A stretch of 60,302 nucleotides of DNA from Acutalibacteraceae bacterium. GTDB taxonomy: Bacteria; Bacillota; Clostridia; Oscillospirales; Acutalibacteraceae. The notes beneath the pieces were generated by a model. That model saw nothing but the letters and a program-made list of their open reading frames with translations. It did no database searches and was not told where the DNA came from. Positions 1 to 59,394 of the stretch are shown here, in pieces. The stretch covers positions 1 through 60,302 of the forward strand of contig JBGUWL010000147.1 in assembly GCA_045221075.1 (NCBI GenBank), written 5' to 3'. A program made the position numbers and the translations under genes. Positions within the stretch are counted from its first letter, which is position 1. Each line of letters starts with the position of its first letter.

Positions 1-83
1 TTTTAATATTACTCGATTTCTAATTATAAGTCGCCAACTTTAGGCGGCTTTTTCCTTTTTATATGGGGTTTTTAGAGGTTCCC
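1..83. repeat. Left copy of an 83-bp perfect terminal inverted repeat of the window (partner 60217..60299)
   Basis: Reverse complement of 60217..60299 is identical base for base to 1..83 (checked by hand). The match stops at 84 and 60216. Confidence 0.95.
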
Positions 84-1024: not shown

Positions 1025-1708
1025 TCAGGGAGTATAGTCTGACCATGCGCCGGCATTGTACTTGTACTTTGTCTTTTCAACGCCGCGTCCGGCCTTTGCG
1101 GCAACGGAGATGTCTACCTTGTAGATCTTTCCGCCGTAGTCATTGCCAAACTCGGTATCGCCGGTCTGATAACCTTCCTTGCCTGCATAGATGTCCTCAT
1201 CCGGCACACCGGAGTTGAAGATGATCTTTGTGGCCTCTACGGGCATTACACAGCGGTAGATATCGGTGTCGCCTACCTTTTCCATCTGAACGCCGGGCCA
1301 TGACTTGTCAAGCACCTGGGTGCCGTTCTCGCCGTTGGCGGGATAGGCCTCGCCGGTGAGCTTGTTGGTAATAAGATGGAAGTCATCATTCCACCAATAG
1401 GCATATACGTTCTGCCACTTGGTCTCACTGTTGTCAAAGTATACATAATCCTTTACGTCCGCTTCGGCGGCGCTGTTGTCTGTCTTGCTCTCGTCAGTTG
1501 TGCTTTCGTCAGTCGTACTCTCGTCGGTCGTGCTTTCGTCAGTCGTACTCTCGTCGGTCGTGCTCTCGGTGGTGTTATCTGCAGAGGCCTCTACGGATGA
1601 ATCCGCTGTTGAGGCGGTGCTTGTGCTGTCGTTCTTTCCGCATCCGGACACTGAAATAGCCAGCATCAGAGCAAAGACAGCCATGCCGTATTTTGTGATT
1701 TTTCTCAT
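1025..1708 (-). CDS. Secreted lipoprotein with an acidic STTDE-repeat linker and a C-terminal CBM25/26-like carbohydrate-binding module
   Basis: ATG at 1708 is preceded by GGAGGAG. Signal peptide with lipobox ISVSGC. The (E)STTD repeat occurs 5 times. The C-terminal part is DYVYFDN..W.NVYAYWW...SWPGVQM....IYRCV.P....KIIFNSG....YQTGD, the aromatic/WPG/IFN/QT pattern of starch-binding CBM25/26 modules. Confidence 0.75.
   Translation of the reverse strand: MRKITKYGMAVFALMLAISVSGCGKNDSTSTASTADSSVEASADNTTESTTDESTTDESTTDESTTDESTTDESKTDNSAAEADVKDYVYFDNSETKWQNVYAYWWNDDFHLITNKLTGEAYPANGENGTQVLDKSWPGVQMEKVGDTDIYRCVMPVEATKIIFNSGVPDEDIYAGKEGYQTGDTEFGNDYGGKIYKVDISVAAKAGRGVEKTKYKYNAGAWSDYTP
1486..1575. 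repeat. Six tandem 15-nt units encoding the STTDE linker, including an exact 30-nt duplication (1501..1530 = 1531..1560)
   Basis: Read directly: TGCTTTCGTCAGTCGTACTCTCGTCGGTCG occurs twice in tandem, flanked by diverged 15-mers. Confidence 0.9.
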
Positions 1709-1855
1709 TGGAATCTCCTCCGTTCTTTGAGCAGGGCGCTCTTTTGGTGATACCATTATACCACAAAGGAGGAGCTTATGGAACCGAAAACAAAAAAGTT
1801 TACGGTTAGTTCATCACTTTTTTAAAATTTCCGGAACAAGAAAACAGCCGAAGGA

Positions 1856-3437: not shown

Positions 3438-3740
3438 TTTTTCACCTATCCTTGGCGGTCATATACCGCAAGAGCTTTTTGCCGTAATATCAGCTTTCCC
3501 CTTTTTTCGCGAAACTTCCAAAGCAGCTGCAAACAGTATCACTACATTTCGGTAATTTAATCGCAATAAATTCTTGCATTATTCCATTTGAGTTTTCACA
3601 TCAAATCAGGTAAAATAATAGTTGGCAAGGGCTGTGCCGCCGATGCAAAATGCCGGCAGCACCGGCCGCCGCGGTACGTCAGACCCTCCTGCGGAGCTTA
3701 TCCGCTTACTCAATTATATCACGGGAGCAGTGGTTTTTCC

Positions 3741-5075
3741 ATGAAAAAAATAGTTACAATTTTTCTCTCTGCTGTGATCCTGCTGTCTGCTTTTATCATA
3801 CCCGCAACAGAGGTCAGGGCAGCGGAATACAACATTGATTTTAAAACAAACTGTACGGCATTGTACCTTGAAAACATAGACACCGAGACCGTTGTCTATA
3901 CAAAAAATCCTGACGAGCGCCGCTATCCGGCCTCTACCACAAAGATAATGACCTACATCATCACCGCCGAAAACGTCAAGGACATAAAAAACACCTATGT
4001 CACCGTCAAAAGCAGCGTGCTTCACATGCTTGACGGCACGGGAAGCTCCATGGCCGGACTCAAGGAGGACGAAAAGCTGACGGTATATCAGCTTCTCCAC
4101 TGTCTGATGATACCCTCCGGCAACGATGCCGCCCTTGTTCTGGCGGATTATATCGGCGGCGGAAACATCAGCAAATTCGTTGATATGATGAACAAAAAGG
4201 CAAAGGAGCTGGGCTGTGAGAACACACACTTTGCAAACCCCCACGGACTCAGCGATCCCGACCATTACACCACCGTCCGTGATATGGCCGTTATCACAAA
4301 GCACGCCCTTTCTCTTCCGGAATTCCTGAATATTTCCAACACCGTTACCTCCGACATCATCGGTGAGGACAGATATCTTGTCACCACCAACTCAATGATA
4401 GACGAGAACAGGGGCGGCGATCTCTACTACAGCCCCGCAAAGGGCATCAAGACCGGCTCTACAGGAAACGATTCGGGCTTCTGCCTTGTTTCTACCGCTT
4501 CAAAGGGCGGATATACCTATCTGTGTGTTGCCTATGGCGCTCCATACGAAAACGACAAGGGCGAGGAATACGAAAACGGCGCAATGCAGGATTCCATCAA
4601 TCTTTACGAATGGGCCTTTGACAACCTGAGCATCAAGACCATCATGGACAAAAACGACCTTGTAAAAGAGATCAGGCTGGAATTTGCCTGGAACAAGGAC
4701 ACACTTCAGCTTGCACCTGCCATCACCTATTCCACCATTCTGCCGGATGATGTTGACATCTCAAGCATCGACCGCACCTATAACCTGCCCGACAGCATCG
4801 AAGCCCCCATCAAAGAGGGGGACATTGTGGGTACCGTGACCCTGAGCTATGCAAATCAGGAGCTTTGCACCATTGACCTTATCGCAACGGAGAACATCGA
4901 CCGCAGCGAGCTGCTCTCCGCCATTGACGCAATCAAAAATGTTGTGACCTCAAAGTGGTTCATCATTTCCGTTATATCCATCGCAGGTCTTATTTTCATT
5001 TACATTATCATATTCATGGTTTACAAGCGCAAGAAAAAATCCCAGCGCCCCGTCAGAAAATACCGCAAATTCTAG
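3741..5075 (+). CDS. D-alanyl-D-alanine carboxypeptidase (peptidase S11) with a C-terminal membrane anchor
   Basis: Start moved to ATG 3741 (MKKIVTIFLSAVILL signal). Active-site motifs are PASTTKIMT (SxxK), PSGND (SxN) and KTGST (KTG). The C-terminal TM is FIISVISIAGLIFIYIIIFMV followed by a basic tail. Confidence 0.85.
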   Translation: MKKIVTIFLSAVILLSAFIIPATEVRAAEYNIDFKTNCTALYLENIDTETVVYTKNPDERRYPASTTKIMTYIITAENVKDIKNTYVTVKSSVLHMLDGTGSSMAGLKEDEKLTVYQLLHCLMIPSGNDAALVLADYIGGGNISKFVDMMNKKAKELGCENTHFANPHGLSDPDHYTTVRDMAVITKHALSLPEFLNISNTVTSDIIGEDRYLVTTNSMIDENRGGDLYYSPAKGIKTGSTGNDSGFCLVSTASKGGYTYLCVAYGAPYENDKGEEYENGAMQDSINLYEWAFDNLSIKTIMDKNDLVKEIRLEFAWNKDTLQLAPAITYSTILPDDVDISSIDRTYNLPDSIEAPIKEGDIVGTVTLSYANQELCTIDLIATENIDRSELLSAIDAIKNVVTSKWFIISVISIAGLIFIYIIIFMVYKRKKKSQRPVRKYRKF

Positions 5076-5194
5076 CCAGCGTGACGCTGGGGTCTCGCCT
5101 GTCGGCTCGGTCGGCGCTGCTGCTGCGCAGCGGTGTCCACCGGACACCCGCGCCCCTCCGGGAGGGAGTTAAATGCCGCATATAGCGGCACTTT

Positions 5195-5225
5195 CCGGCT
5201 GTCTTCTTCAGGCAGCCGGATTTTT
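5195..5225 (+). terminator. Hairpin plus T-run inside repeat unit B1; probable terminator of the upstream carboxypeptidase gene
   Basis: CCGGCTG-N11-CAGCCGG followed by ATTTTT. Confidence 0.6.
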
Positions 5226-5598
5226 GCGCTTTTCATAGTTTAGCGTGCCTGGTGCGTGACCGGCGCAGAGCCTGCGCTCCCGTGTTCGCGGCGGTCGCTT
5301 CGCTGACGCTGCGCTCTGGGCTCGGGCAGGACACTTTTACTCCCGCGGTTCCCTCCCTCAGTCAGCTTCGCTGACAGCAGTCTCGCCTGTCGGCTCGGTC
5401 GGCGCTTCTGCTGCGCAGCGGTGTCCACCGGACACCCGCGCCCCTCCGGGAGGGAGCCTTGAAGCCTCCCTCTTTGAGGGATGAGTGACGCCCCAAGAAG
5501 CGGAGCCGAAGGCGAACGCTGATTGGATTGCGGAACTTATGCAAAGCTGGTGGCGCGCAGCGCCGGAGGGAGTTAAATGCCGCATATAGCGCCACTTT

Positions 5599-5630
5599 CC
5601 GGCTGTCTTCTTCAGGCAGCCGGATTTTTT
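5599..5630 (+). terminator. Second copy of the same hairpin plus T-run (repeat unit B2)
   Basis: CCGGCTG-N11-CAGCCGG followed by ATTTTTT. Confidence 0.5.
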
Positions 5631-5955
5631 GCGCTTTTCATAGTTTAGCGTGCCTGGTGCGTGACCGCGCTGGACGAGTGCCAACGCATTCAGCTCCATC
5701 ACTCCCGCCCGCGTCGTGAACCATAAAGGTTCACTTTGGCTGTTTTATTCCACGTCTTACCTTTCTTCGTATTGAGAATAAAGATGTTCATACAACACTT
5801 CCGTGTCCCGACCCGAGAAAAGCCGTATCCGCGGCACATGACTGCAGGATGCAGCTGAACCGGAGCGCGAAGCAGGGTGCGGCAGCTTGCCGCCGGTGAA
5901 CCTTTTGGCTTGTGCTTCATAGTATGGAATATAAGAAATAAAAGGAGGAATAATA

Positions 5956-6801
5956 ATGACAGATAATGTTCTGTGCAGCGGCTGTGACGAATGTGAGCAG
6001 ACCGGCAGGATAAAAGAGGCTGTCTGCATAAACGCTTCACGCATCTATGATTCATGTTCGGACAAGGACTGCCTTGAGGATCTTCCCGTGCTTCTGACAA
6101 AGCCCGGTCAGTGCATGATCGACAAGGCCGCCGGAGTGCGGCTCAATGACGTCAGTGTAGGCAGCGTCTCCATAGGTCTGCAGCCCATACCCTTCAACAA
6201 GGGCTTCTATGCGGTGGATATGACATTCTATTTTGATGTGTGTCTTGATGTGTTCATGGCGCCCAACGCTCTGCCCATGCCCGTAAAGGGTCTTGCTGTG
6301 TTCTCTAAGAGAGCCGTGCTTTTCGGCAGCGACGGCAGCGTCAAGGTGTTCACTTCGGAATGCGGCGCAGACGCTCCCGACGGTCAGAGCCTTCCCACAA
6401 GGACCTGCCCCAAGGCCGTTGTACAGGTGGCCGAGCCTATCCCGCTTTGCGCAAAGTTAGCCGACAAAAACACCTGCCCCTGTGTGCCTCCCTGCCGCAT
6501 ACCCGAAAGCATAATGAGACGCTACGGCGGCGAGTTCGTCAGCACGGAAGCCGACAAACAGGTGCTTGTCTCTATAGGTCTGTTTTCTATCGTACAGCTT
6601 GAGCGCAATGTCCAGATGCTTATTCCCGCATACGACTTCTGCATCCCCCATAAGGAGTGTGTTTCAAGCTCTGAGGACCCCTGTGAGCTTTTCAGCAGTA
6701 TTGAATTCCCCACAAACGAATTCTTTCCCTCAAAGCTCTCCTGTGACAGCACACCCCCCTGCGGCTGCCGCAGCGCTTCAAACCAGGACGGTATGATCTG
6801 A
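5956..6801 (+). CDS. Cysteine-rich hypothetical protein (20 Cys in 281 aa)
   Basis: Strong SD AAGGAGG lies 8 nt upstream of the ATG. N-terminal CSGCDEC...C...C....C cluster and C-terminal CPCVPPC / PPCGC motifs. I cannot name a family. Confidence 0.7.
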   Translation: MTDNVLCSGCDECEQTGRIKEAVCINASRIYDSCSDKDCLEDLPVLLTKPGQCMIDKAAGVRLNDVSVGSVSIGLQPIPFNKGFYAVDMTFYFDVCLDVFMAPNALPMPVKGLAVFSKRAVLFGSDGSVKVFTSECGADAPDGQSLPTRTCPKAVVQVAEPIPLCAKLADKNTCPCVPPCRIPESIMRRYGGEFVSTEADKQVLVSIGLFSIVQLERNVQMLIPAYDFCIPHKECVSSSEDPCELFSSIEFPTNEFFPSKLSCDSTPPCGCRSASNQDGMI

Positions 6802-6953
6802 CTGGACAGAACTAAAACACAATACTGCAAAGTCAGTCAGATCCCGATGCTTAGCAGACGCCGCTTTCCGGAATCGAACCGAAAGACGCGAATTATTCAG
6901 TGGTACCATGATATTCCGCCCTTGCAAAAGAAATAACAGCGTTCCGTCAGGAC

Positions 6954-7002
6954 GGAAAAACGGCGCATCCCGATCTTATGCGGGATACGCCGTTTGTTTT
7001 TT
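6954..7002. terminator. Bidirectional rho-independent terminator between convergent genes
   Basis: 12-bp GC-rich stem CGGCGCATCCCG / CGGGATACGCCG with one mismatch. It is flanked by an A-run upstream and TTTGTTTTTT downstream. Confidence 0.8.
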
Positions 7003-7023
7003 GTGTTTGATTTTGTGTCATAA

Positions 7024-8799
7024 TTACCGGAGTACCTGTACTTCCGGGGTGTCATAGCTGTCGCTTGCGCCGATCAGTTTTTTGAGATCAGCAGCTGAAG
7101 CGGTAAGGATGTTGTTGTCTGATGTAAGCTCAACGATCTCCGCCTTTGTGGACACATAGTACTCATAGGTGGTATTGGTACCATACCGTGTGTCCTTGTA
7201 GGTAAGGGTCATTGAATCATCGGTTATCTGCAGATTGCCGGTAACGGTAAAGTTGGGAGTAGCAGACTCACCGCCTACAGCAGTAAGCTGCGTTCCGCTT
7301 GAGCCATAACTGCTCATGGGGCTGGACATATTGTTGGAAAGGGTAAAGTCGCCTGTGCCGGTATCTCTTACGAATGTGGTGCTGCCGGTAACAAGCAGGC
7401 CGGAATAGGTGATGACATACTTGTCAACGGAAGAGTCGCTCTCGTCGGTAAGGACTGCGGACTGTACGGTCACATCGTTGCCGTTTGATCCGGTAAGAGC
7501 CTTGACGGTGATCTTCTTTGAGTTTTCGGGATCTGCGCCGTAGGTCATGACGAGCTTCATGGTCTGACCGTTAGCTTCAACAATGAATTCGGCCTGCATA
7601 AGCGCGCCGTTCTTGTTGGTATAGTGCTTAAGTGTGACCTTTACGCCGCCCAGACCGTTTGCAGAGCTGAGAAGCTGCTGGAGATCCACCTTTGAAAGAG
7701 CCTCGTCAATGGCAAGATTGATCTGGCCGTTGATGTTTACGTTGCTTCTTACCCAGTCGGTAAAGTGACCGTAAACGGTAGTGATTATATCGGTATTCTC
7801 AAAGGTGTGGGTGATAACATAAGCGTCGGTCTGTGTGCCGTCGATGTCGGCCTTCTCCTCGCTGACGCTGACGTTGCCGCACTTGTCAAAGTCCTCACAG
7901 AGGGTCTTTCCGAAGGCTTCAAGACCAAAGGGATCCTCAGCCTTGAGGTTTTTGAAGACATACTCATAGACATCCATAAAGGTATCGTACTGAGTGCGGT
8001 TGATGTTGAGGATGTTTTCTCCCTCGGGACCGAAGGCGGAATTGAGTGCGTTCTCTCTCAGTCCTTCATAGTCAAGGTAATAGTCAAAAGACTTTCCGTT
8101 GTAGTCGGCCTTAATAACGCCTCTGTCAAGGGTGGAGTAGAACTCTCCTGTGGCATCAGTATAATCCTCCCCGAAGTCAGGGCTATACTTAATGTTCTGC
8201 TTTACATAGAATTTGTTGTTCACACCGTCAACAGAGAACAAGGTCATGTTGGTGGAGTAATCGTTAGTAACGGTAAGACGGGTGGTCTTCTGTTTGGTGC
8301 TGCTGTCGGCAAAAGTCTTGGTCAGCTTGTTGTTTCCGGCAAGGGAAGCGGCGGTAGTGCGGTAGGAATCCGCAACGTACTTTGTGGGGTCGTCCTTGAT
8401 CTTGCCCAGGGCCATGGAGCTGAGAATAGCCCGTACAACGAAGAAGGTGGCAATGCCCAGAGCGATCACACCGGCAATTACAATAAGCCAGATGATCAGC
8501 TTCTTGTGGCTCTTTTTTGCCACAACGTCTGACATTGTATATTCCTGATATCTGGACTGGTCATTGTTTATTTCGTTCATCTGGTCGGCAGAAAGCACAG
8601 GGGTCTGGTTATAGAAATTATCCTGTCCTGCGCCCTGAGGGTACATAGGCTGAGCCGGATTAGGCTGAGCCGGATTAGGCTGGGCCTGGGTCTGGCCGTT
8701 TGAAAACTCCGGAGAAGAAATGTCCGGAATGAAAGTTCCGCAGCTGCTGCAATAACGGAATGAGGGGTCGTTATCCTTTCCGCATTTTGGACAAAACAT
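7024..8799 (-). CDS. Zinc-ribbon membrane protein with a large extracytoplasmic domain (function unknown)
   Basis: SD AAAGGAG. The N-terminus CPKCGKDNDPSFRYCSSCG is a zinc ribbon. Then an AQPNP repeat low-complexity region and one TM (LIIWLIVIAGVIALGIATFFVV), followed by about 460 aa outside. Confidence 0.7.
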   Translation of the reverse strand: MFCPKCGKDNDPSFRYCSSCGTFIPDISSPEFSNGQTQAQPNPAQPNPAQPMYPQGAGQDNFYNQTPVLSADQMNEINNDQSRYQEYTMSDVVAKKSHKKLIIWLIVIAGVIALGIATFFVVRAILSSMALGKIKDDPTKYVADSYRTTAASLAGNNKLTKTFADSSTKQKTTRLTVTNDYSTNMTLFSVDGVNNKFYVKQNIKYSPDFGEDYTDATGEFYSTLDRGVIKADYNGKSFDYYLDYEGLRENALNSAFGPEGENILNINRTQYDTFMDVYEYVFKNLKAEDPFGLEAFGKTLCEDFDKCGNVSVSEEKADIDGTQTDAYVITHTFENTDIITTVYGHFTDWVRSNVNINGQINLAIDEALSKVDLQQLLSSANGLGGVKVTLKHYTNKNGALMQAEFIVEANGQTMKLVMTYGADPENSKKITVKALTGSNGNDVTVQSAVLTDESDSSVDKYVITYSGLLVTGSTTFVRDTGTGDFTLSNNMSSPMSSYGSSGTQLTAVGGESATPNFTVTGNLQITDDSMTLTYKDTRYGTNTTYEYYVSTKAEIVELTSDNNILTASAADLKKLIGASDSYDTPEVQVLR

Positions 8800-8987
8800 A
8801 AAAACATCTCCTTTTTATGAAATTGAACAGTTGTTCTGTTAATAGTATGTTAACAGAATTTTCTGATAAAAGCAATAGAATCATACAAATTTTTTCTGAA
8901 TAATAGCCGAATTTTTTCGATTTTTCAATTGACAAAGAGGGCTTTTCATCTTACAATTATTATGTTATTTTTATACGAGGTGATCAG

Positions 8988-9758
8988 GTGAACATACTTG
9001 CAATAGGCGATGTTGTGGGCTCTGTTGGCTGCCGGTTTCTCCGCAGCAAGCTGCCTGCACTTAAAAAAAATGAGAATATCGACCTTGTCGTCTGCAACGG
9101 TGAAAACACCGCCGACGGCAACGGCATAACCCCCTCCTCTGCGGACTATCTTTTCAGCAGCGGCGTTGACGTGATAACCGCCGGCAACCACACCTTCCGC
9201 AGACGGGAGAGCTACGAAAAGTTTGACGAATGTCCCTGTCTTATAAGACCCGCCAACTACCCCGAGGCCACCACCCCCGGAAGGGGATATACTGTATATG
9301 ACTTCGGACGGCAGCAGGTGACGGTAATTAACCTGATGGGCTGTTTGTTCATGGAGCCCCTGGATGACCCCTACCTGACCGTGGACAGGATCCTCAGCCA
9401 GACGGAAACAAAGATAATCATACTCGACTTTCACGCAGAGGCCACCGCCGAAAAGCTGGCAATGGCCTTTTACCTTGACGGCAGGATATCGGCAATGTTC
9501 GGGACCCACACCCATGTCCAGACTGCCGACGAGACCATCCTCCCCGGCGGTACAGGCTATATCACAGATGTGGGCATGACCGGACCCCTGCTGTCCGTGC
9601 TGGGGGTAAAGCCCGAGCTTGCCATACGTAGTTTCAAAGAAAAACTGCCGGTGCGCTTTGAGGTTGGCAGCGACCCCTGCTGTATGGATTGTATCAAATT
9701 TTGTATTGATGACCAGACCGGAAAAACGACCATGGTAAAGAGAATAAAAGTTTTATAA
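8988..9758 (+). CDS. ymdB: YmdB-family metallophosphoesterase (2',3'-cyclic-nucleotide phosphodiesterase family)
   Basis: GTG start with GAGGTG SD. N-terminus is MNILAIGDVVG...NGENTADGNGIT...GNHTF. The conserved ymdB-spoVS adjacency is present. Confidence 0.85.
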   Translation: MNILAIGDVVGSVGCRFLRSKLPALKKNENIDLVVCNGENTADGNGITPSSADYLFSSGVDVITAGNHTFRRRESYEKFDECPCLIRPANYPEATTPGRGYTVYDFGRQQVTVINLMGCLFMEPLDDPYLTVDRILSQTETKIIILDFHAEATAEKLAMAFYLDGRISAMFGTHTHVQTADETILPGGTGYITDVGMTGPLLSVLGVKPELAIRSFKEKLPVRFEVGSDPCCMDCIKFCIDDQTGKTTMVKRIKVL

Positions 9759-9891
9759 AAATTCATAAAATTATAACATTTTCTTTATACTATGCACTTG
9801 AATAATATCTGCTTTGTTTATATTATATTAGTGTATGTTTTAATGGCGAAGTATCAATATTTTTACCATACGATTCAGGAGGGCATTAATA

Positions 9892-14406: not shown

Positions 14407-14415
14407 TTCTTACTT

Positions 14416-14570
14416 TTTTCCGATTAAAAGCAGACACTTTTAATCGGAAAAGGCGCCGCCACAGGCTGCGCCCATCTGTGCATACGCCCAGATGAAGTCT
14501 CATGCAAACTCCGATGCGCTGACGCGCTATTAAATGCAGACTATGTCTGCTTTTAATAGAAGTTTAGTAT
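14416..14570 (+). repeat. Copy 1 of a ~155-nt five-hairpin MITE-like element (element E)
   Basis: It lies about 10 nt after the recG stop. Hairpins include TTCCGATTAAAAG/CTTTTAATCGGAA, ATCTGTGC/GC(A/C)CAGAT and TTAAA(A/T)GCAGAC/GTCTGCTTTTAA. Other copies are at 36011..36165 and 48841..48995. Confidence 0.85.
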
Positions 14571-14734
14571 CAGATCCTGTCTGAAATATAACTTCCTGTC
14601 AGACGGCATCTCATATCTGCACCTGCTTCACATCCGGTCAATTCATTACTTGAATGCTTCCCTTGAAGACGCATTAACCTGACTGAAGTTGTTTACTGCT
14701 GTTCAGTCAATTACAACCTGATATAATCAATTCA

Positions 14735-35796: not shown

Positions 35797-36000
35797 AGTC
35801 TCACCTGTCGGCTCGGTCGGTGATTCTGTACCCCAAGGGCACTTCCTTCGGGCGCCTACGGCAGAGGTGTCCACCGGACACCCGCACCCGCACCGGACGA
35901 TTATGTTTTGGTAACAAGCTTTGTATCGCTGCCTTATCCGTTTCCAAAGCAAAATTGAAAGTGTAGGCTCTCCGTCCGGCGCTTCTGCCTTTGGCAGCCC
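35797..36000. repeat. GC-rich mosaic repeat block R2
   Basis: Contains GTCTCACCTGTCGGCTCGGTCGG, ACCCCAAGGGCACTT and the GGTGTCC-ACC-GGACACC hairpin, all shared with R1, R3 and R4. Confidence 0.75.
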
Positions 36001-36010
36001 TCTGATGCTG

Positions 36011-36165
36011 TTTTCCGATTAAAAGCTGACACTTTTAATCGGAAAAGGCGCCGCCCGAGGCTGCGCCAATCTGTGCATACGCACAGATGACATCTCATGC
36101 AAACTCCGACGCGCTGACGCGTTATTAAAAGCAGACTATGTCTGCTTTTAATGGGAGTTAAGTAT
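36011..36165 (+). repeat. Copy 2 of element E
   Basis: About 95 percent identical by eye to the reverse complement of 48841..48995, with the same five hairpins. Confidence 0.85.
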
Positions 36166-36245
36166 GACTTCTATGACTATAAAATTTTTCTGAACAGATC
36201 GATCACTTGCTGAATCGACTTGATACCCATATTTTTCAGCAAATA

Positions 36246-36336: not shown

Positions 36337-39300
36337 TTATTTTACCTTCCACAGCTCAGTAGCATACTGGAGGATGGTACGGTCTGATGAGAACTGACCG
36401 GAATTTGCGGTGTTCATCAGGCACTTTCTTGCAAATGCTCTTCTGTCCTTATAGTCGTTGTTGACACGGACCTTGGTCTCGATATATTCGGGCAGGTCTC
36501 TGAGGATGAAGTAGTGGTCAGCCTGATGCCAGCTTGCGCCTTCAAGCAGAGAATCATGCAGCTCCTTGAAGGAACCCTCGCCGGTTGCGCCGTCGTCGGA
36601 GAAGCGGCCGTCGATAAGGGTATCGATAACTCTCTTGACCTCATCGTTCTCGTCATAGATCTTCTTGGGATCATAGGTATCCTTGATCTCGTTGATCTCT
36701 TCAACTCTTGCGCCGAAGATGTACTCGTTCTCGATGCCTGCGTTCTCGGCGATCTCGATGTTAGCACCGTCCCATGTACCGATAGTAACGGCACCGTTGA
36801 TCATGAACTTCATGTTACTGGTACCGGAAGCCTCTGTACCTGCGGTAGAGATCTGCTCGTGGATATCGGCAGCGGGAATGATCTTCTCGGCATAGGATAC
36901 GTTATAGTTGGAAACGAAGACGACCTTCATTCTGTTGTTTACTTCGGGATCATTGTTTACGAGGTTAGCTATCTCGTTGATGAACTTGATGATAGCCTTT
37001 GCTCTTGCATAGCCGGGAGCGGCCTTTGCGCCGAAGATGAATGCGGTGGGAGTGAAGTTGGGCAGCTTGCCTTCCTTCAGGCGGAAGTAGATAGCCATGA
37101 TGGAGAAGGCGTTCATGAGCTGTCTCTTGTACTCATGCAGACGCTTTACCTGGATGTCGAACATAAAGTCGGGATCGATATAAACGCCGTCATGCTTCTG
37201 GATGAACTCGGAGAGCTCCTTCTTCTTCTGATACTTGATGCCGTTGAACTTGTCAACGTTCTCGTCGGTGATATGAGCTTCAAGTCTCTTGAGGTCGTCA
37301 AGGTTCCTGATCCACTTCTTGCCGATGAGGTCGGTGATGAACTCGGAGAGCTCGGGGTTGCACAGTGCAAGCCAGCGGCGCTGAGTTACGCCGTTTGTCT
37401 TGTTCTGGAAGCGCTCGGGATAGAGCTCGTACCACTCTTTGAGGGTATCGTCCTTAAGGATCTGGGTATGGATAGCGGCAACACCGTTAACATAGCTGGA
37501 GCAATAGGTAGCCATACGAGCCATGTGAACTCTTTCGCCGTCGATGATGACCATGTTGTCCATCTTGGTCTTGGGGGTCTCGCCCTTCTTTACCTTGCCG
37601 ATGGGCTCTGCATAGCCTCTTGCGGTAAGATCGGCAACCAGACGGTCGTTGATCTTTACGATAATATCATAAACATCAGGAATGATGCTCTTCATCAGGT
37701 CAATGCTCCACTTCTCAAGAGCCTCCTGCATTACGGTGTGGTTGGTATATGCAAAGGTCTTCTGAGCAACGCCGAGAGCCCAGTCAAAGTCACAGCCTTC
37801 CTTTGTAAGAAGTCTTACAAGCTCGGGGATGGAGATGGTGGGATGTGTATCGTTAAGCTGGATAACGGTCTCCTCTGCAAAGTGTGAGAGGTCTGTGCCG
37901 TGTCTCTGCTTGTATCTCTTGAGGATATCCTGCAGTGATGCGGATGAGAAGAAATACTGCTGCTTCAGTCTGAGGACCTTGCCCTCGTGGCTGTTGTCGT
38001 TGGGATAGAGTACCTTTGAGATATTCTCGGCGGCGTTCTTGTCCTTAACGGCAGCGTCATACTGACAGTTGTTGAACTCAAGGAAGTTGAAGTCGCTTAC
38101 GGCCTCTGCCTCCCAGAGACGCAGGGTGTTGATGTTGTCTGTGCCGGTACCGATAATGGCCATGTCATAGGGAACAGCCTTTACACTCTGGTCGGCGAAA
38201 TCAACAATAACGGTATCCTCGGCTCTCTTGATGCACCAGGGATCGCCAAAGCGCTGCCAGTCGTCAGCAACCTCTACCTGATAACCGTTGCGGATCTCCT
38301 GCTTGAACAGGCCGTACTTATAGCGGATGCCATAGCCGTCAAGAGGAACGTCATGAGTTGCAGCGGAATCAAGGAAGCAGGCAGCAAGTCTGCCAAGACC
38401 GCCGTTGCCGAGAGCGGCGTCGTCGATCTCTTCAAATACGTTGATGTCGATATCCTTCTCTGCAAGCAGCTTCTTGGTGTGCTCCAGAACGCCCATTGCA
38501 TAAAGGTTGTTGTACATCATACGGCCCATAAGGAACTCAGCGGAGAGATAGTATGCACGGCGGTGTTCGGCGTGATTTCTCTTGCTGTCAGCCCATTTTT
38601 CAGAAATGGCGCCCATCATTGCTTTACCAAGTGCTTCGTGAAGCTCAGCGGGTGAAAGCTCATTGAGCTCTTTACAGTACTCGTTCTTTGCGGTAAGCAC
38701 GAGGTTGTCGATAATGGCATTTTTCTTCATTTTTTTGTCATCCTCCAGCCTTCTGTATATTTTTGACAAATGATATAGTTTTTTAGAGATCTTGGAGTTG
38801 ATGGCTCCTGCCTTCATTCTCCATGTCCAGTTGCCGCCAAGGGTGGAAGGCTCGTTCATTCTTGCCTCGCCCCCAAGACCCAGAACATCCTGCATCTGAA
38901 CTATTGCGTAATCGCTGACGCTTGCATAAGCGGTGCGGATAAAGCCCCAATTGTAACCCTCGGTCTTGTTCAGGTGGCAATACTCCTTTGCAAACTCAAA
39001 GTCCCTTCTCTTGATGGTCTTCAGCCAGCCCATGATGGTATCGTTATCGTGGGTACCGGTATAGCAGACACAGTTCTTTGTGTAGTTGTGGGGCAGATAG
39101 TTGCTGTCGGAGCGTGAATCAAAAGCGAACTCCAGGATCTTCATTCCTGGATAGCCTGATTCCTCAAGCAGCTTGATAACGCCGGGAGTCATGTGGCCAA
39201 GGTCCTCTGCGATGATCGGAACATCGCCCAAGCGCTGCTTCATCCTTCTGAAGAACTTCATGTTGGGGCCGTCAAGCCACTCGCCGTTGATGGCGGTCTC

Positions 39301-40402: not shown

Positions 40403-41070
40403 GCCAGCGTGACGCTGGGGTCTCGCCTGTCGGCTCGGTCGGTGCTTCTGCCTGCGGCAGAGGTCTCCACTGGAGACCCGCACCCCATGTTCGCGGTGCG
40501 TGACCGCACTGGACGATTCGCGGCGGTCGCTCCGTTAACACTCCGCTCTGGGGTCGGGTCGGAAAGTTTACTCCCACGGCAATCATATAAAAAATGCCGA
40601 CACTGATAAAGCCGTAACCGCGGCACATGACTTCCGGATGCTGCTGAACCGGAGCGTGAAGTCACCACCGGCGGCTCGCCGGTCGCGCTGTCGCTCAACT
40701 GCCGTTTCGCTCTGAATTCGGACAGAATACTTTTATTTCCGCACCAATAATAAAATATTCCTATTCTGCTAAAGCCGTAACCGCGGTACATGACTTCCGG
40801 ATGCTGCTGAATCGGAGCGTGAAGTCACCACCGGCGGCACCCCAAGGGCACTTGTTTCACTGCGCTCGCCGGTCATTGAGCGAACGAAGTGAGCGTTTCT
40901 CTTTCCAGCTGCTTTCTACAGGACTTACCTATGTCCTGACACTCTTCACTTACCTATGTCCTGACTTTACACTTTACACGTCTCACTCCTAACTCCTCAC
41001 TCCTAACTCATAACTGATATAATTCCACTTTCCAAATTCCACATTTTATAACTCCTCACTCCTAATTCCT
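40403..41070. repeat. GC-rich mosaic repeat block R3 with a pyrimidine-rich low-complexity tail
   Basis: It has an internal direct repeat (40608..40675 and 40771..40838). About 165 bp is colinear with 59088..59255. The CATTGAGCGAACGAAGTGAGCG motif is followed by CTTACCTATGTCCTGAC x2 and TCACTCCTAACTCC-type tracts. Confidence 0.85.
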
Positions 41071-41073
41071 AAC

Positions 41074-43945: not shown

Positions 43946-44180
43946 ACAAACACCGGACCCTTTCTTTATTATTCTGTTATCCAGTGATAACACGGAAACG
44001 CTCACTTTGCTCTCTCAATTAACAGTGAATAATATTTACGTAAATATTGATTTCATCAAAGCAGGAAGAAACCCTCACTGCGGCCGCTCAATGAAATTTT
44101 AACAGTGTGAAGTATCTTATGGATCCGCCCTGCAATTGCCGTCACGTCATTGCCCCGACCCATGGTATATCGGTGCAGTT

Positions 44181-45137: not shown

Positions 45138-45202
45138 CCGGTCATCACCTGCATTATTATTTTCCGCTCCTATTATACAACACTTTTCCTATTTCTGCAA
45201 CT

Positions 45203-45765
45203 TGCGGCGCAGAGCCTGCGCTCCCAATTCGCGGCGCAGAGCCTGCGCTCCCAATTCGCGGCGGTCGCTCAACTGCCGTTTCGCTCTGGGCTCGGACGGG
45301 AAAGTATTTTTCCCGCGGTTCACGGCACGTCATATACCGTACCCATCCGCCGCCGTGACCCTTAATCGGGTCACTTTCCGGCTGCTGTCATCGGGATTTT
45401 TATATTTCTTACGCTGTCCATGCTCTGGCGTGCCTGTTTATGCGGGAGTCAAATACAGATAAGCATTATTCACTGTTCATTATTCGTTATTCATTATTCA
45501 TTGAGCGAACGAAGTGAGCGTTTCCGGCGCAGAGCACCCCAAGGGCACTTGTTTCACTGCGCCTGCGCTCCCTATTTCGCGGCGCAGAGCCTGCGCTCCC
45601 GATTCGCGGCGGTCGCTCCACTGCGTTTCGCTCTGAACACGGGCAGATTACTTTTACTCCCGCGCCAGACGGCACGGGAATAATATTATCCTGTTCGAGT
45701 TCAGGTGTAACGCAGTGGAGCGACAGCGCGAAATCACCACCGGCGGCTCGCCGGCAGTAACATCT
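45203..45765. repeat. GC-rich mosaic repeat block R4
   Basis: It has a tandem 27-bp duplication GCGGCGCAGAGCCTGCGCTCCCAATTC x2 (45205..45258). The motifs CATTGAGCGAACGAAGTGAGCG and ACCCCAAGGGCACTTGTTTCACTGCG occur in the opposite order to R3. A low-complexity tract TTCATTATTCGTTATTCATTATTCA precedes them. Confidence 0.85.
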
Positions 45766-45772
45766 TTGTAAA

Positions 45773-45801
45773 TTGACATTAAAGTATTGATGTAATATAA
45801 T
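45773..45801 (+). promoter_or_regulatory. Consensus sigma-A promoter of the GT2/TagF-like gene
   Basis: TTGACA-N17-TATAAT (perfect hexamers), 55 nt upstream of ATG 45856. Confidence 0.6.
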
Positions 45802-45855
45802 GGTATAGACGATGTACGGAATTGATCGACCTTTGTTTCTGTTTTGGAGGCTGCC

Positions 45856-48606: not shown

Positions 48607-48840
48607 TATCGGACACTTGGGCTATAAAGATACGAGCTGCGCTGCATCAGCGCCAAAGACCGTTGTCAAGGCTATATGATATCAGTACTATATCAGGAAT
48701 AATAATACCGCCTTTATTGACAGGGCTTCGGAAGGCTGATCCTCAGTCTTTCAGAACAGAGTCAATAAAGGCGGTCATTTTAATATGTTGATTTTTTAAG
48801 GGTATGAGCATTGACGTTTTTTCAGTTCGTCCTGTTCCTC

Positions 48841-48995
48841 ATACTTAACTCCCATTAAAAGCAGACACAGTCTGCTTTTAATAGCGCGTCAGCGCGTCGG
48901 AGTTTGCATGAAACGTCATCTGTGCATATGCACAGATGGGCACAGCCTGGGGCGGCGCCTTTTCCGATTAAAAGTGTCAGCTTTTAATCGGAAAA
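48841..48995 (-). repeat. Copy 3 of element E (inverted orientation)
   Basis: It is the reverse complement of copies 1 and 2. It begins about 6 nt downstream of the stop of the minus-strand gene 49001..49873. Confidence 0.85.
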
Positions 48996-49000
48996 CAGTA

Positions 49001-49873
49001 TCAGTGCCGGAATACGGATGCAAGCCGCAAAAAGACTGCGCTGTGAGCAGGTTCTGTAAAATAGCTCACTGCAAAAAAACACAGCGCCGCCGAAAGAAAC
49101 ACCGCCGACCAGATCACAAAGCCACGGCTGTAGGCCCTGACCGAGGCATCTCCCGACCTGCCGAAGGACAGTACAAGCGCCGTCACAAGATTAATGACGG
49201 GTATCATAAATACCAGCTGCAGCAAAAACGCCCGGGCTGTGGTGAAAGGTTTCTTTTCAGTTCCCTTCTCCTGCTCATGAGCTTTTGCGGTGTCCGCAGG
49301 AACAGACAGAAGTGTTTCCGCCTCCGCCTTTGCCTGCCTGTCAAGCTCCTTTATCCGGTTTCTGTCAAACACGCGTCTGAAAGGAGGCTGAGCGAGAGCC
49401 TCGATCTCGGTGGCGGTTTTTTCACGCCGGTACAGATCATCAGCGATCTCGTAGATTATACCCGACGCCTCAGGCATAGTACGGCGGTTGTCAGGAAAGG
49501 GAAGCTCCCCGTCGGTCCTGACATATTCGTAACCCATTGGGATAAAAACGTCGTTCCGTTCTTTACTCACAGGCTCCGGTGAACTTTCTGCAGTTTCAGA
49601 AACAGGACTTTCCCGGGATATTGCAGTTTCATCTTTGGCTTCGCCCATGATGACCGACAGAGGTCCCGGTGACAGAACAGGCTGTGCCTGCTGAACGGGA
49701 CTGTCAGTAACGTCGGAAGAATTACGGACACTTTTCAGTTTGTTTCTTTTGCGTTTTTGCTTTGACGGGTGCTTGTCGGTAAGCTCGTCGATATCCTTCG
49801 GTGAAAGAGCCGAGGTCCCGTCGCACACCATTGCGGCAACCGAGGGGTCAATATTGATGGGATCATGTATCAT
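49001..49873 (-). CDS. Hypothetical protein: disordered basic/acidic N-terminal region and two C-terminal TM helices
   Basis: ATG 49873 is preceded by GGAGGA. The TM segments are LLQLVFMIPVINLVTALVL and FVIWSAVFLSAALCFFAVSYF. No family recognised. Confidence 0.55.
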   Translation of the reverse strand: MIHDPINIDPSVAAMVCDGTSALSPKDIDELTDKHPSKQKRKRNKLKSVRNSSDVTDSPVQQAQPVLSPGPLSVIMGEAKDETAISRESPVSETAESSPEPVSKERNDVFIPMGYEYVRTDGELPFPDNRRTMPEASGIIYEIADDLYRREKTATEIEALAQPPFRRVFDRNRIKELDRQAKAEAETLLSVPADTAKAHEQEKGTEKKPFTTARAFLLQLVFMIPVINLVTALVLSFGRSGDASVRAYSRGFVIWSAVFLSAALCFFAVSYFTEPAHSAVFLRLASVFRH

Positions 49874-54216: not shown

Positions 54217-54278
54217 CAGACAATTCCCCCCAAAAGGTTTCTGTTGATATATATGCGCGCAGCCGGTTTTGATACTGC

Positions 54279-59037: not shown

Positions 59038-59300
59038 AACCGGCGACCCGCCGGTGGTGATTTCGTGCTGTCGCTCAACTACGTTTCGATGCGTGACCGC
59101 ACTGGACGATTCGCGACGGTTGCTCCACTAACGTCTCGCTCTGGGCTCGGACAGGAGGCTTTTATTCCCGCGGCAATCATATAAAATATGCGACACTGAT
59201 AAAGCCATAATCGCGGAACAAAACTATCGGATGCCATTGAACCGGAGCGCGAAGTAGGGAGCGCAGGCGCAGTGAAACAAGTGCCCTTGGGGTGCTCTGC
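59038..59300. repeat. GC-rich mosaic repeat block R5
   Basis: About 165 bp (59088..59255) is colinear with 40494..40660 at roughly 80 percent identity. It ends with the inverted motif CGCAGTGAAACAAGTGCCCTTGGGGT. Confidence 0.8.
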
Positions 59301-59394
59301 GCGGCAAATAAAATGTTTGCCTTTCCTAATAAAACATGATATAATAGTTCGGTATGGTAATAACATTACCAAATAATATATTCGGAGGTACAAT

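What the first reader, a model, noticed from the sequence alone, without database searches (positions are those of the whole stretch)
5076..5905. GC-rich mosaic (BIME/REP-like) repeat family occupying five intergenic regions; block R1 has an A-B-C-A-X-B structure
The blocks are 5076..5905, 35797..36000, 40403..41070, 45203..45765 and 59038..59300. They are built from shuffled 20-100-bp GC-rich motifs, each able to form a hairpin:
- GTCTCGCCTGTCGGCTCGGTCGG
- GGTGTCC-ACC-GGACACC
- GCGCAG-AGC-CTGCGC within CGCAGAGCCTGCGCTCCCNATTCGCGGCGGTCGCTC
- GCGTGACCGCACTGGACGATTCGCG
- ACCCCAAGGGCACTTGTTTCACTGCG
- CATTGAGCGAACGAAGTGAGCG
- AAGCCGTAACCGCGGCACATGACTTCCGGATGCTGCTGAACCGGAGCG

Motif order and orientation differ between blocks.

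In R1, unit A (77 bp) and unit B (~102 bp, containing a hairpin+T-run) each occur twice. Together the blocks account for roughly 2.5 kb, about 4 percent of the window, and make intergenic regions of 0.3-0.9 kb.

The motifs translate into recurrent pseudo-peptides (for example PTEPTGET) that would seed false hypothetical proteins. From memory I recognise a stylistic resemblance to uncharacterised GC-rich intergenic repeats seen in other gut Clostridia. I know of no assigned function.
Basis: seen in the sequence. Interest (0 to 1): 0.7.

Follow-up and report, generated by a model that had tools for sequence, protein, structure and literature searches.

The report
Nested mini mobile repeats in gut Clostridia
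The five GC-rich intergenic blocks are real pile-ups of very small non-coding mobile DNA modules. The best defined is a 63-67-base folded element that occurs in at least 73 gut and rumen Clostridia species and always lands just in front of a run of Cs without duplicating its target, a behaviour I could not find described for this group of bacteria.

Summary
Five intergenic regions share 20-170-nt GC-rich modules in different orders and orientations, and R1 has the A-B-C-A-X-B layout. There are two corrections: R2 ends at 35890, and two of the seven motifs do not form hairpins on their own.

The window comes from an Acutalibacteraceae genome. Its nearest relatives have short AT-rich spacers at the same loci, so the blocks are lineage-specific insertions.

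'Unit A' is an invariant 23-mer (GTCTCRCCTGTCGGCTCGGTCGG) followed by a three-way junction.
- It occurs in at least 117 stretches from 73 species-level genomes of Oscillospirales.
- Its stems covary strongly: 97% of cells are paired and 17 of 22 pairs show compensatory changes.
- It has no orientation bias relative to neighbouring genes.
- About 19 filled/empty site pairs show a discrete insertion immediately 5' of CCC(C), often in a hairpin loop, with no target duplication. Some insertions lie inside TnpV genes and are read through in frame.

A second module of 26-27 nt sits in the loops of other modules.

No match was found in Rfam, plasmids, annotated phages or the paper library.

Best reading: these are BIME-like mosaics built by nested insertion of non-autonomous micro-elements, probably moved as single-stranded DNA by an unidentified HUH-type enzyme. 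No transposase was found. I class it as a new variant of a known kind, with interest about 0.6.

The parts
5076..5905 (.). Block R1, between the dacC-like PBP5 gene (3588-5075 +) and the 281-aa gene (5956-6801 +). Layout: hairpin, A, B, C, hairpin, A, X, B, D piece, unique stretch, diverged G.
   Evidence: 61% G+C
5092..5156 (+). Unit A copy 1: 23-mer followed by a three-way junction. The 77-nt repeat extends to 5168.
   Evidence: covariance-model (CM) hit of 89.8 bits; 23-mer exact
5380..5444 (+). Unit A copy 2. Its flanks (CAGTCAGCTTCGCTGACAGCA | CCCCTCCGGGAGGG) occur without the unit in L108:155-202.
   Evidence: CM hit of 85.5 bits; empty-site alignment
5161..5262 (+). Unit B copy 1, with a terminator-like hairpin and T-run at 5194-5220.
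   Evidence: fold z = -4.0
5565..5667 (+). Unit B copy 2, with a terminator-like hairpin and T-run at 5598-5624.
5261..5351 (+). Module C: hairpin GCGCAG-AGC-CTGCGC followed by the TTCGCGGCGGTCGCT... tail. Other copies are at 40517-40583, 40681-40747 (partial), 45232-45321, 45580-45667 and 59110-59176.
   Evidence: D2, D4, D8, D15; fold z = -2.0
5798..5891 (+). Diverged copy of module G (AAGCCGTAWCCGCGGCACATGAC...CCGGAGCG).
   Evidence: D1, 71% to the reference copy
35798..35890 (+). Unit A copy 3 (this is block R2). Its P2 loop carries the 26-nt module-E variant TACCCCAAGGGCACTTCCTTCGGGCG at 35829-35854.
   Evidence: CM hit of 61.9 bits
40403..40900 (.). Block R3: hairpin, A, D, C, G, partial C, G, E, F. 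With its low-complexity tail (to 41073) it fills the spacer that is only 184 nt long in the closest relative, L220.
40420..40486 (+). Unit A copy 4.
   Evidence: CM hit of 96.7 bits
40587..40683 (+). Module G copy, ending in the hairpin CCGGCGGC-TCGCCGG. This hairpin is the 'empty' state for the module-E insertion.
   Evidence: D1, D11; fold z = -3.0
40750..40872 (+). Second module G copy. The same hairpin here carries the 27-nt module E in its loop.
40839..40865 (+). Module E (ACCCCAAGGGCACTTGTTTCACTGCGC) inserted in a hairpin loop.
40901..41073 (.). Low-complexity tail of R3 (CTCACTCCTAACTC-type short repeats, 40% G+C). It is absent from relatives.
43993..44032 (-). Isolated fragment of module F (…CATTGAGCGAACGAAGTGAGCGTTTC…).
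   Evidence: I6, I12
45196..45760 (.). Block R4, in the divergent spacer between the Dus gene (-) and the TagF-like glycosyltransferase gene (+). It contains two module-C hairpins plus a C tail, a B-like hairpin, F, a C hairpin with E in its loop, C, and an inverted copy of the G-terminal hairpin segment. The block lies at a break in gene order relative to relatives.
45536..45562 (+). Module E inserted in the loop of GCGCAGAGC^CTGCGC. Empty copies of this hairpin are at 45205-45225, 45232-45252, 45580-45600 and 5261-5281.
59038..59308 (.). Block R5, in the divergent spacer between the HTH gene (-) and the 253-aa gene (+). It contains an inverted copy of the G-terminal hairpin segment, D, C, G, and an inverted C hairpin with E (E at 59267-59295, - strand).

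Best explanation
The blocks are mosaics built by repeated, partly nested insertion of several families of very small non-coding mobile DNA modules into intergenic 'safe' sites.

**Shown**
1. Unit A is a discrete element that begins at GTCTCRCC... and ends at ...CGCR or ...CTCA. It is 63-67 nt long, or 55-59 nt in the form that lacks hairpin P2.
2. It is present or absent at otherwise homologous sites. It always sits immediately 5' of CCC(C), with a variable 5' flank and no target-site duplication. The site is often the loop of a G/C hairpin.
3. Its hairpins are maintained by compensatory change while the 23-mer stays invariant across families of Oscillospirales.
4. It has no orientation preference relative to genes, and it can land inside genes.
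5. A 26-27-nt module (E) sits in the loops of other modules.
6. The blocks are absent from the orthologous spacers of the nearest relatives.

**Inferred**
- The modules are non-autonomous and are moved in trans as single-stranded DNA by an HUH-type enzyme, in the style of IS200/IS605 TnpA or RAYT.
- Read on the opposite strand, unit A inserts 3' of GGGG without duplication and has a hairpin near each end. That is the IS200/IS605 rule.
- The target's CCCC pairs with G18-G19 and G22-G23 of the invariant 23-mer. This could be guide-target pairing of the IS608 kind.

**Consequences**
Spacers swell from about 0.2 kb to 0.3-0.9 kb. Terminator-like hairpins are duplicated. Two blocks lie at gene-order breakpoints. 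Assemblies break at the repeats, and spurious ORFs are called through them.
For: **Distribution.** The exact 23-mer is found in at least 117 stretches from 73 assemblies (Acutalibacter, Neglectibacter, and Ruminococcus/Oscillospiraceae metagenome-assembled genomes). Only 7 stretches were found in viral contigs.

**Structure.** About 109 distinct copies fold to the same three-way junction. Covariance model R1 finds 130 + 29 copies. On the alignment of the first 130 hits:
- 97.4% of cells are paired, against 33-51% when partners are slid;
- 17 of 22 pairs show changes on both sides;
- 226 double-change cells are seen, against 41.5 ± 5 in shuffles.

**Insertion and target.**
- In TnpV genes the empty site is TGGGG-YA-AGCGG. 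Filled alleles carry +63 nt at that site, and a second site is also used.
- In the integrative mobilizable element (IME), the simple hairpin GCCGGGGC-TAA-GCCCCGGC (L221, L223) carries unit A in its loop in L095.
- A systematic search gave about 19 filled/empty pairs. The cleanest are L213/L107, L044/L094, L029/L061, L033/L114 and window 5380/L108.
- The 3' flank is C at positions 1-3 in 96-99 of 99 copies and at position 4 in 80 of 99.

**Orientation.** Left-gene same/opposite is 50/45 and right-gene is 40/46.

**Nested module E.**

**Lineage specificity.** Relatives at 75-94% protein identity have spacers of 184-410 nt without unit A. Only the L215 group has a few other modules at the R3 site.

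**Not anything catalogued.**

**Published rules used for comparison.**
- IS608: subterminal imperfect palindromes, with cleavage and target tetranucleotides read by base pairing (PMC3201880, PMC5934647).
- Group 1 RAYTs occur in Clostridia (PMC5581495).
Against: - No Y1/RAYT-type gene was found in 1.83 Mb of held DNA. The test is weak: the query sequences were written from memory and only 8-kb pieces of each genome were held.
- No transposase family recurs next to copies.
- There is no orientation bias relative to gene direction. IS200/IS605 elements show a bias towards the lagging-strand template.
- G·T versus A·C mismatches in the stems (32 versus 26) do not show which strand folds.
- Junctions in some filled/empty pairs differ by ±1-2 nt.
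- For modules B, C, D, F and G, mobility is inferred only from copy number, shuffled order and absence in relatives. Part of R1 (A-B ... A-X-B) may be a local segmental duplication.
- Genome-wide copy number could not be measured.
Confidence: 0.6

Rival explanations
1. Unit A, and perhaps other modules, is a structured RNA: a small RNA gene or a cis-acting UTR element such as an mRNA stabiliser, processing site or terminator. The stems are kept for RNA function.
For: Strong covariation in a three-way junction next to an invariant single-stranded 23-mer. Many copies lie within about 100 nt of gene ends. Unit B carries terminator-like hairpins co-oriented with the upstream gene.
Against: There is no orientation bias relative to flanking genes. 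Copies lie antisense inside TnpV coding sequence at two sites. The flanks carry no conserved promoter or terminator. There is no Rfam match even at E ≤ 10. G·U does not exceed A·C in the stems. Presence/absence with a precise target rule is transposon behaviour.
Confidence: 0.1
2. Unit A is an origin-of-transfer-like site. It would be nicked at ...GCR^CCCC by MobA/VirD2-type relaxases, and the chromosomal copies would be orphan oriT mimics spread by relaxase-catalysed strand transfer.
For: In L055 and L095 the unit lies directly upstream of, and co-oriented with, a nikA/mobC-like gene plus relaxase operon. Its 3' end, CCGCGCCCC, shares GCGCCC with the MOBQ oriT consensus NWACCNNTAAGTGCGCCCTYNN (PMC3832669). 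Relaxases are HUH enzymes that act on a hairpin plus single-stranded DNA.
Against: An unconditioned test failed. Eighteen loci fetched through three homologous relaxases (65-70% identical) have no unit A at E ≤ 1. Those elements carry their own conserved inverted repeat, GCGTCCGGC-TATAC-GCCGGACGC, and in L095 unit A is simply an insertion in the loop of the next hairpin. Most copies are nowhere near transfer genes.
Confidence: 0.08
3. The repeats are not mobile elements. They are spread and shuffled only by local duplication, recombination or gene conversion between palindromes.
For: R1 has an A-B...A-X-B layout whose copies are 98-99% identical. R1 and R4 coincide with rearrangement breakpoints. 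Some junctions differ by 1-2 nt.
Against: Identical element boundaries and the same CCCC target were found at about 19 unrelated sites in many genomes, including inside genes. The 23-mer is invariant across at least 73 species. There are no shared flanks between copies.
Confidence: 0.1
4. The blocks are decayed fragments of a known IS, intron or gene, or they are assembly artefacts.
For: The contig has an 83-nt perfect inverted repeat at its ends, and assemblies of relatives break at the repeats.
Against: There are no Pfam, Rfam, plasmid or annotated-phage matches. The same units are recovered from independent assemblies, including cultured isolates. An independent assembly that is 99.4% identical reproduces window 5458-9798.
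Confidence: 0.03

Closest known systems
REP / BIME of enterobacteria and REPIN-RAYT systems (PMC3184786, PMC3116915, PMC5581495)
   Same: GC-rich repeated units, many of them palindromic, clustered as mosaics in intergenic regions and often near gene 3' ends. They are non-autonomous and are presumed to depend on a single-strand HUH enzyme. Inverted doublets of unit A occur in some genomes (L052, L016, L058). Group 1 RAYTs are reported in Clostridia.
   Different: Unit A is a 63-67-nt three-way junction plus an invariant 23-mer, not a 20-40-nt palindrome with a GTAG-type head. The same sequence is shared across families, whereas REPs are species-specific. There is no alternating orientation in the window. 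The element has a defined CCCC target. No RAYT was found.
IS200/IS605-family single-strand transposition and its miniature derivatives (IS608: PMC3201880, PMC5934647, PMC5027513)
   Same: Read on the opposite strand, unit A inserts 3' of a fixed tetranucleotide (GGGG) with no target duplication. There are no terminal inverted repeats but there is a hairpin near each end. The target bases can pair with an internal conserved segment (G18-G19 and G22-G23).
   Different: No cognate TnpA is known. The element is far smaller than described derivatives. No strand bias relative to gene direction was seen. The guide pairing is inferred, not tested.
Rickettsia palindromic elements (reviewed in PMC10969869)
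   Same: A small structured repeat found both between genes and inside genes, where it is read through in frame. TnpV is 146 aa with the insertion and 125 aa without it.
   Different: Rickettsia palindromic elements are about 100-150 bp and occur in many unrelated genes. Here in-gene copies were documented only in TnpV, and some of them are frameshifted.
Pneumococcal BOX / RUP / SPRITE repeats (PMC3049150)
   Same: Modular small interspersed repeats in a Firmicute, some with terminator-like hairpins. They seed spurious ORFs.
   Different: BOX has a fixed boxA-boxB(n)-boxC order. Here the order is shuffled and the modules are nested. There is no sequence similarity.
IS1397 / ISKpn1 / IS621 targeting of REP units (PMC3184786)
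   Same: Repeat hairpins serve as preferred landing sites for other mobile DNA.
   Different: Those are full-length insertion sequences. Here the incoming pieces are 26-67 nt long and have no coding capacity.

Membership tests
REP/BIME (RAYT-associated) | Unit is a 20-40-nt imperfect palindrome with a conserved 5' tetranucleotide head | tested here: not met
   Unit A is 63-67 nt: a 23-nt invariant head plus a three-way junction. Modules E and F do not fold.
REP/BIME (RAYT-associated) | Many extragenic copies, clustered as mosaics with other short motifs | tested here: met
   Five intergenic mosaics lie in 60 kb. The genome-wide count could not be obtained.
REP/BIME (RAYT-associated) | Units in alternating orientation (REP doublets / REPINs) | tested here: inconclusive
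   All four window copies are on the + strand. Inverted doublets are seen in L052, L016 and L058.
REP/BIME (RAYT-associated) | A cognate RAYT gene flanked by the repeats | tested here: inconclusive
   No IS200 or RAYT homologue was found in 1.83 Mb of held DNA. Only 8-kb pieces of each genome were available and the query sequences were written from memory.
Classical MITE | Terminal inverted repeats and a target-site duplication | tested here: not met
   The ends GTCTCGCC... and ...CCGCR are not inverted repeats. There is no duplication in about 19 filled/empty pairs.
IS200/IS605-type single-strand element (miniature derivative) | Insertion next to a fixed tetranucleotide, with no duplication | tested here: met
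   The element lies immediately 5' of CCC(C), which is 3' of GGGG on the other strand.
IS200/IS605-type single-strand element (miniature derivative) | Subterminal hairpins at both ends instead of terminal inverted repeats | tested here: met
   P2/P3 lie near one end. The small GCC-TGTC-GGC hairpin lies 5 nt from the other end, but it is invariant, so covariation does not support it.
IS200/IS605-type single-strand element (miniature derivative) | Y1 HUH transposase that recognises these ends; bias towards the lagging-strand template | not testable with these tools
   No whole genomes of carriers were available. The proxy test (orientation relative to genes) shows no bias.
Rfam-type structured RNA family | Covarying structure plus consistent transcriptional context or orientation | tested here: not met
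   Covariation is met. Orientation and context are not. No Rfam family matches.
oriT of a MobA/VirD2-type mobilizable element | Present upstream of the relaxase operon throughout the relaxase family | tested here: not met
   Present in L055 and L095. Absent in 18 loci of three homologous relaxases.
Pneumococcal BOX | Fixed boxA-boxB(n)-boxC architecture | tested here: not met
   Module order and orientation differ between blocks.

The most novel reading that the evidence does not exclude
Unit A would be the substrate of an undescribed single-strand insertion system that is conserved across Oscillospirales. It would be a 63-nt cargo-less micro-transposon, among the smallest site-specific mobile DNAs. 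Its invariant 23-mer would carry both the enzyme-binding site and a guide (GG..GG) that pairs with the CCCC target, which directs it into hairpin loops and even into genes. The 26-27-nt module E would be a second, still smaller member of the same kind of system.
Probability: 0.3. Interest if true: 0.8.

Novelty: new variant of a known kind. Interest (0 to 1): 0.62.

Why it matters
**For annotation and assembly of gut and rumen Clostridia.** These modules break contigs. They inflate spacers and generate false 'hypothetical proteins'. They can be read through inside real genes. The covariance model built here finds them reliably.

**For mobile-DNA biology.** A 63-nt element has an exact boundary, a four-base target, no duplication and a 23-mer that is invariant across bacterial families. 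This points to a conserved enzyme that has not been identified. If target choice is by base pairing, as in IS608, it could be reprogrammed.

**For experiments.** Cultured carriers exist (Acutalibacter caecimuris M00118, Neglectibacter caecimuris M00184, Acutalibacter sp. 1XD8-33), so the question can be tested directly.

**For genome evolution.** Two blocks lie at gene-order breakpoints, and terminator-like and promoter-like sequences travel with the modules.

Tried and rejected
- **Rfam.** Nothing at gathering thresholds on the whole window. Only chance-level hits at E ≤ 10 on R1.
- **tRNA/tmRNA scan.** None found.
- **Literature search for the motif sequence.** No paper contains it. General searches for Clostridia repeats found no description of it.
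- **Plasmid and phage collections.**
  - There was no plasmid match.
  - Only two short unit-A-sized hits were found, both in unannotated faecal 'Bacteriophage sp.' records.
- **Transposase next to copies.**
  - Clustering 609 ORFs from 117 loci gave only tyrosine integrases, large serine recombinases and relaxases of unrelated integrative elements.
  - No IS200 or RAYT homologue was found.
- **oriT hypothesis.** It was raised by the position upstream of nikA-relaxase genes. It was rejected as a general explanation by the unconditioned test on 18 homologous loci.
- **Which strand folds.** G·T versus A·C counts are inconclusive.
- **Outer stem.**
  - Pairing of the flanks is only slightly better than in permuted flanks (p = 0.008).
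  - The apparent GGGG...CCCC stem is mostly the pre-existing target hairpin.
- **Same-strain comparison at R1.**
  - Only two short contigs carry the identical neighbouring protein.
  - One diverges at 5458, which indicates a rearrangement or an assembly join.
- **Pseudo-ORF search with the 131-aa R3 ORF.** Only 9 hits were returned, all through the unit A peptide. This is what led to the TnpV insertions.
Full report

Yes. Repeat finding and a self-BLAST of the five blocks show that 20-170-nt segments are shared among 5076-5905, 35797-35890, 40403-40900, 45196-45760 and 59038-59308. A small inverted piece lies at 43993-44032. Nothing comparable occurs in the rest of the 60 kb.

The 23-mer GTCTCGCCTGTCGGCTCGGTCGG has four copies within 3 mismatches (three exact, one with a single mismatch), and ACCCCAAGGGCACTT occurs four times. 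Neither appears in any of 100 shuffles.

R1 has the stated A-B-C-A-X-B layout.
- Unit A lies at 5092-5168 and 5380-5456 (99% identical).
- Unit B lies at 5161-5262 and 5565-5667 (98% identical).
- Each B carries an 11-bp hairpin followed by a T-run.

The blocks are 56-66% G+C in a 48.6% window. They lie between ordinary chromosomal genes: a PBP5-type carboxypeptidase, a fused MalQ-GlgP, CinA, Dus, a TagF-like transferase and an HTH regulator.

Spurious ORFs of 114-153 aa run through the blocks and repeat the peptide APTEPTGET.

Three corrections apply.
- R2 belongs to this family only up to 35890. The sequence at 36002-36167 is a separate AT-rich repeat.
- 40901-41073 is low-complexity sequence.
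- Two motifs, the 27-nt ACCCCAAGGGCACTT... module and CATTGAGCGAACGAAGTGAGCG, do not fold better than shuffles.

**2. Source and lineage specificity**

The MalQ-GlgP protein falls in a 90%-identity cluster that includes an Acutalibacteraceae metagenome-assembled genome.

Syntenic loci from the closest relatives were fetched.
- The closest relative (94% protein identity, L220) has 184 nt between CinA and MalQ-GlgP. The window has 849 nt there. The alignment shows that all of R3 lies between the CinA stop codon and the conserved promoter region.
- The L215 group (92% identity) has 410 nt at this site. It carries a few different modules of the same style and no unit A.
- More distant relatives (75-88% identity, 37-42% G+C) have plain AT-rich spacers.

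Gene order breaks at R4: relatives have an ABC transporter next to Dus. An independent assembly that is 99.4% identical diverges from the window exactly at 5458, inside R1.

**3. Unit A**

I count 73 assemblies, all Oscillospirales-type Clostridia and including cultured Acutalibacter and Neglectibacter. It is rare in viral contigs, with 7 stretches.

Downstream of the 23-mer the sequence varies but always folds the same way.
- P1 is GGYGC/GCRCC.
- P2 is a hairpin of variable length, sometimes absent.
- P3 is a hairpin with the conserved apex CCACYGG.
- A run of CCCC follows.

A covariance model built from 19 copies finds 130 hits in the window plus 99 loci. It finds 29 more elsewhere, including diverged copies that lack the exact 23-mer.

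On the alignment of the first 130 hits:
- 97.4% of cells pair, against 33-51% when partners are slid;
- 17 of 22 pairs show changes on both sides;
- 226 double-change cells are seen, against 41.5 ± 5 in shuffles.

The alignment was fitted to the model, but the compensatory changes are plain in the raw sequences.

No Rfam family matches, and no paper in the library contains the sequence.

**4. Not a transcript-oriented element**

In 130 copies, the left-hand gene is on the same or the opposite strand 50 and 45 times. The right-hand gene is 40 and 46. The flanks share no promoter or terminator. G·T and A·C mismatches in the stems are about equal, 32 and 26.

**5. It is an insertion with a rule**

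Searching a pseudo-ORF from R3 returned proteins in which the unit A peptide interrupts TnpV. Intact TnpV is 125 aa. Some alleles are 146 aa with a 21-aa in-frame insert, and others are frameshifted.

DNA alignment gives the empty site TGGGG-YA-AGCGG, against TGGGG-[G TGCGGG...GGCGAGAC C]-AGCGG for the filled site, a net gain of 63 nt. A second site in the same gene (after QMLW) is also used. Both insertions are antisense to the gene.

In an integrative mobilizable element, a simple hairpin is seen as GCCGGGGC-TAA-GCCCCGGC in L221 and GCCGGGC-GCA-GCCCGGC in L223. In L095 the same hairpin carries unit A in its loop.

A systematic search joined the two flanks of every copy and looked for uninterrupted matches. 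It gave about 19 filled/empty pairs. Examples:
- CCACCGTAAG[A]CCCCACG against CCACCGTAAG|CCCCACG;
- GATGATATCCG[A]CCCCTACG against the same sequence without A;
- TAAGGGGGACGCTGT[A]CCCCCTTA against ...ACGCTGC|CCCCCTTA;
- the window's own copy at 5380 against L108.

The rule is as follows. The element runs from GTCTCRCC to ...CGCR or ...CTCA. It sits immediately 5' of CCC(C). The 5' flank is variable. There is no target duplication, and a few junctions wobble by ±1-2 nt.

Across 99 distinct copies, the first three 3'-flank bases are C in 96-99 and the fourth in 80. The apparent outer stem GGGG...CCCC is therefore mostly a pre-existing hairpin whose loop was hit.

One consequence follows. The C64-C67 bases that pair with G18-G19 and G22-G23 of the 23-mer come from the target.

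**6. Nested modules**

The 27-nt module E sits in the loop of CCGGCGGC^TCGCCGG at 40839-40865; the empty copy is at 40653-40683. It also sits in the loop of GCGCAGAGC^CTGCGC at 45536-45562 and, inverted, at 59267-59295. Four empty copies of that hairpin exist.

A 26-nt variant sits in the P2 loop of unit A at 35829-35854, and inside P3 of a unit A in L078.

The other modules (B, C, D, G, X) occur in only a few other genomes.

**7. Mechanism**

Shown: discrete, site-specific, duplication-free insertion of a structured element with no coding capacity. It has conserved sequence at one end and freely covarying hairpins. It occurs in either orientation, in spacers, in hairpin loops and in genes.

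Inferred: mobilisation in trans as single-stranded DNA by an HUH-type enzyme. Read on the other strand, the element inserts 3' of GGGG without duplication and has a hairpin near each end. This is the IS200/IS605 pattern, in which the target tetranucleotide is read by base pairing with a short guide inside the element (PMC3201880, PMC5934647). Group 1 RAYTs are reported in Clostridia (PMC5581495).

Against this: no Y1-type gene was found in 1.83 Mb of held DNA. That test is weak, because the queries were written from memory and only fragments of each genome were held. No replication-related strand bias was seen by proxy.

**8. The oriT alternative**

In L055 and L095, unit A lies just upstream of a nikA/mobC-like gene and a MobA/VirD2 relaxase. 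Its 3' end shares GCGCCC with the MOBQ oriT consensus (PMC3832669).

I tested this without conditioning on unit A. Three relaxase homologues (65-70% identical) were used to fetch 18 loci, and none contains unit A at E ≤ 1. Those elements have their own conserved inverted repeat, and unit A in L095 is an insertion beside it. The oriT reading is therefore unlikely as a general explanation.

**9. Comparison with known systems**

The blocks behave like BIMEs: intergenic mosaics of repeated units, many of them palindromic. Unit A fails the defining REP features and the MITE features, since it has no terminal inverted repeats and no target duplication.

It meets the insertion-rule and end-structure features of IS200/IS605-type single-strand elements. 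The enzyme could not be tested.

In-frame copies inside TnpV recall Rickettsia palindromic elements (PMC10969869). Insertion into the hairpins of other repeats recalls IS1397 and IS621 targeting of REPs (PMC3184786).

I found no description of this family, so I class it as a new variant of a known kind.

**10. Verdict**

- About 0.8: these are non-autonomous mobile micro-elements with a defined CCCC target.
- About 0.4: the HUH single-strand mechanism specifically.
- About 0.6: the combined statement as given under the best explanation.

Interest is about 0.6.

Noticed in passing
window 1-83 and 60217-60299: The two ends of the contig are a perfect 83-nt inverted repeat. It is AT-rich and contains a terminator-like hairpin (AAGTCGCCAACTTTAGGCGGCTTTTT). 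It is either an inverted repeat that flanks this 60-kb segment in the genome or an assembly artefact.
   Followed up: partly
window 14411-14573 (+), 36002-36167 (+), 48838-49004 (-); partial copy at 54278-54313: A second, AT-rich repeat family of about 165 nt (91-95% identical). It is made of four or five hairpins, for example TTTTCCGATTAAAAG...CTTTTAATCGGAAAA. It folds far better than shuffles (z = -8.6) and has no Rfam match. One copy abuts block R2, and the motif TTTTCCGATTAAA also follows a unit A in L085.
   Followed up: partly
window 1472-1561: Five in-register copies of a 30-nt segment at 15-nt spacing (GCTYTCGTCRGTYGT-type unit), overlapping the ORF 1025-1756 (-). It is probably a repetitive peptide region.
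   Followed up: no
window 5458 (R1) and 45138-45843 (R4); L118, L215-L220: Two blocks coincide with rearrangement points. A 99.4%-identical assembly has different sequence to the left of 5458. Relatives have an ABC transporter rather than the TagF-like transferase next to Dus.
   Followed up: partly
L200:2937-3023 (- strand): A second TnpV copy in this contig lacks about 17 nt exactly at the unit A insertion site (…CCAAAGGTAGAA|TAGGCATTTGCGG…). This could be the scar of an imprecise loss of the element.
   Followed up: no
L204:134-574 (P0121): This TnpV allele reads unit A in a different frame (VRVSGGDLCRRQKHRPSRQAR). It has one extra G before the unit and one fewer C after it, which restores the downstream frame. 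This suggests selection to keep TnpV translatable despite the insert.
   Followed up: partly
L221-L238, L095, L032, L089, L006, L026, L099: A widespread integrative mobilizable element with the gene order AAA_25 protein, NikA-like protein, MobA/VirD2 relaxase, then one or two tyrosine integrases. A conserved inverted repeat (GGCAAGCATAGCGTCCGGCTATACGCCGGACGC) lies upstream of nikA and is likely its real oriT.
   Followed up: partly
window 40582-40609 (- strand), with the equivalent site in the module G copy of R5 (59180-59273): The AT-rich head of module G carries a promoter-like site at 40582-40609 (TTATCA, 16-nt spacer, TATGAT; 9 of 12 matches). It points towards malQ-glgP. By eye the R5 copy has a similar sequence facing the HTH gene.
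   Followed up: no
L052:6028-6250; L016:4375-4536: Unit A copies that lack P2 occur as head-to-head inverted pairs. The partner has a diverged head (TTCTACGCTGTCGCTTCGGTCGG / GTTCTCAGCTGTCGCTTCGGTCG). This resembles REP doublets built from two unit types.
   Followed up: partly
window 36337-40224 (-): A single 1295-aa gene fuses 4-alpha-glucanotransferase (MalQ, GH77) to glycogen/starch phosphorylase. The fusion is conserved in relatives down to about 42% identity.
   Followed up: no
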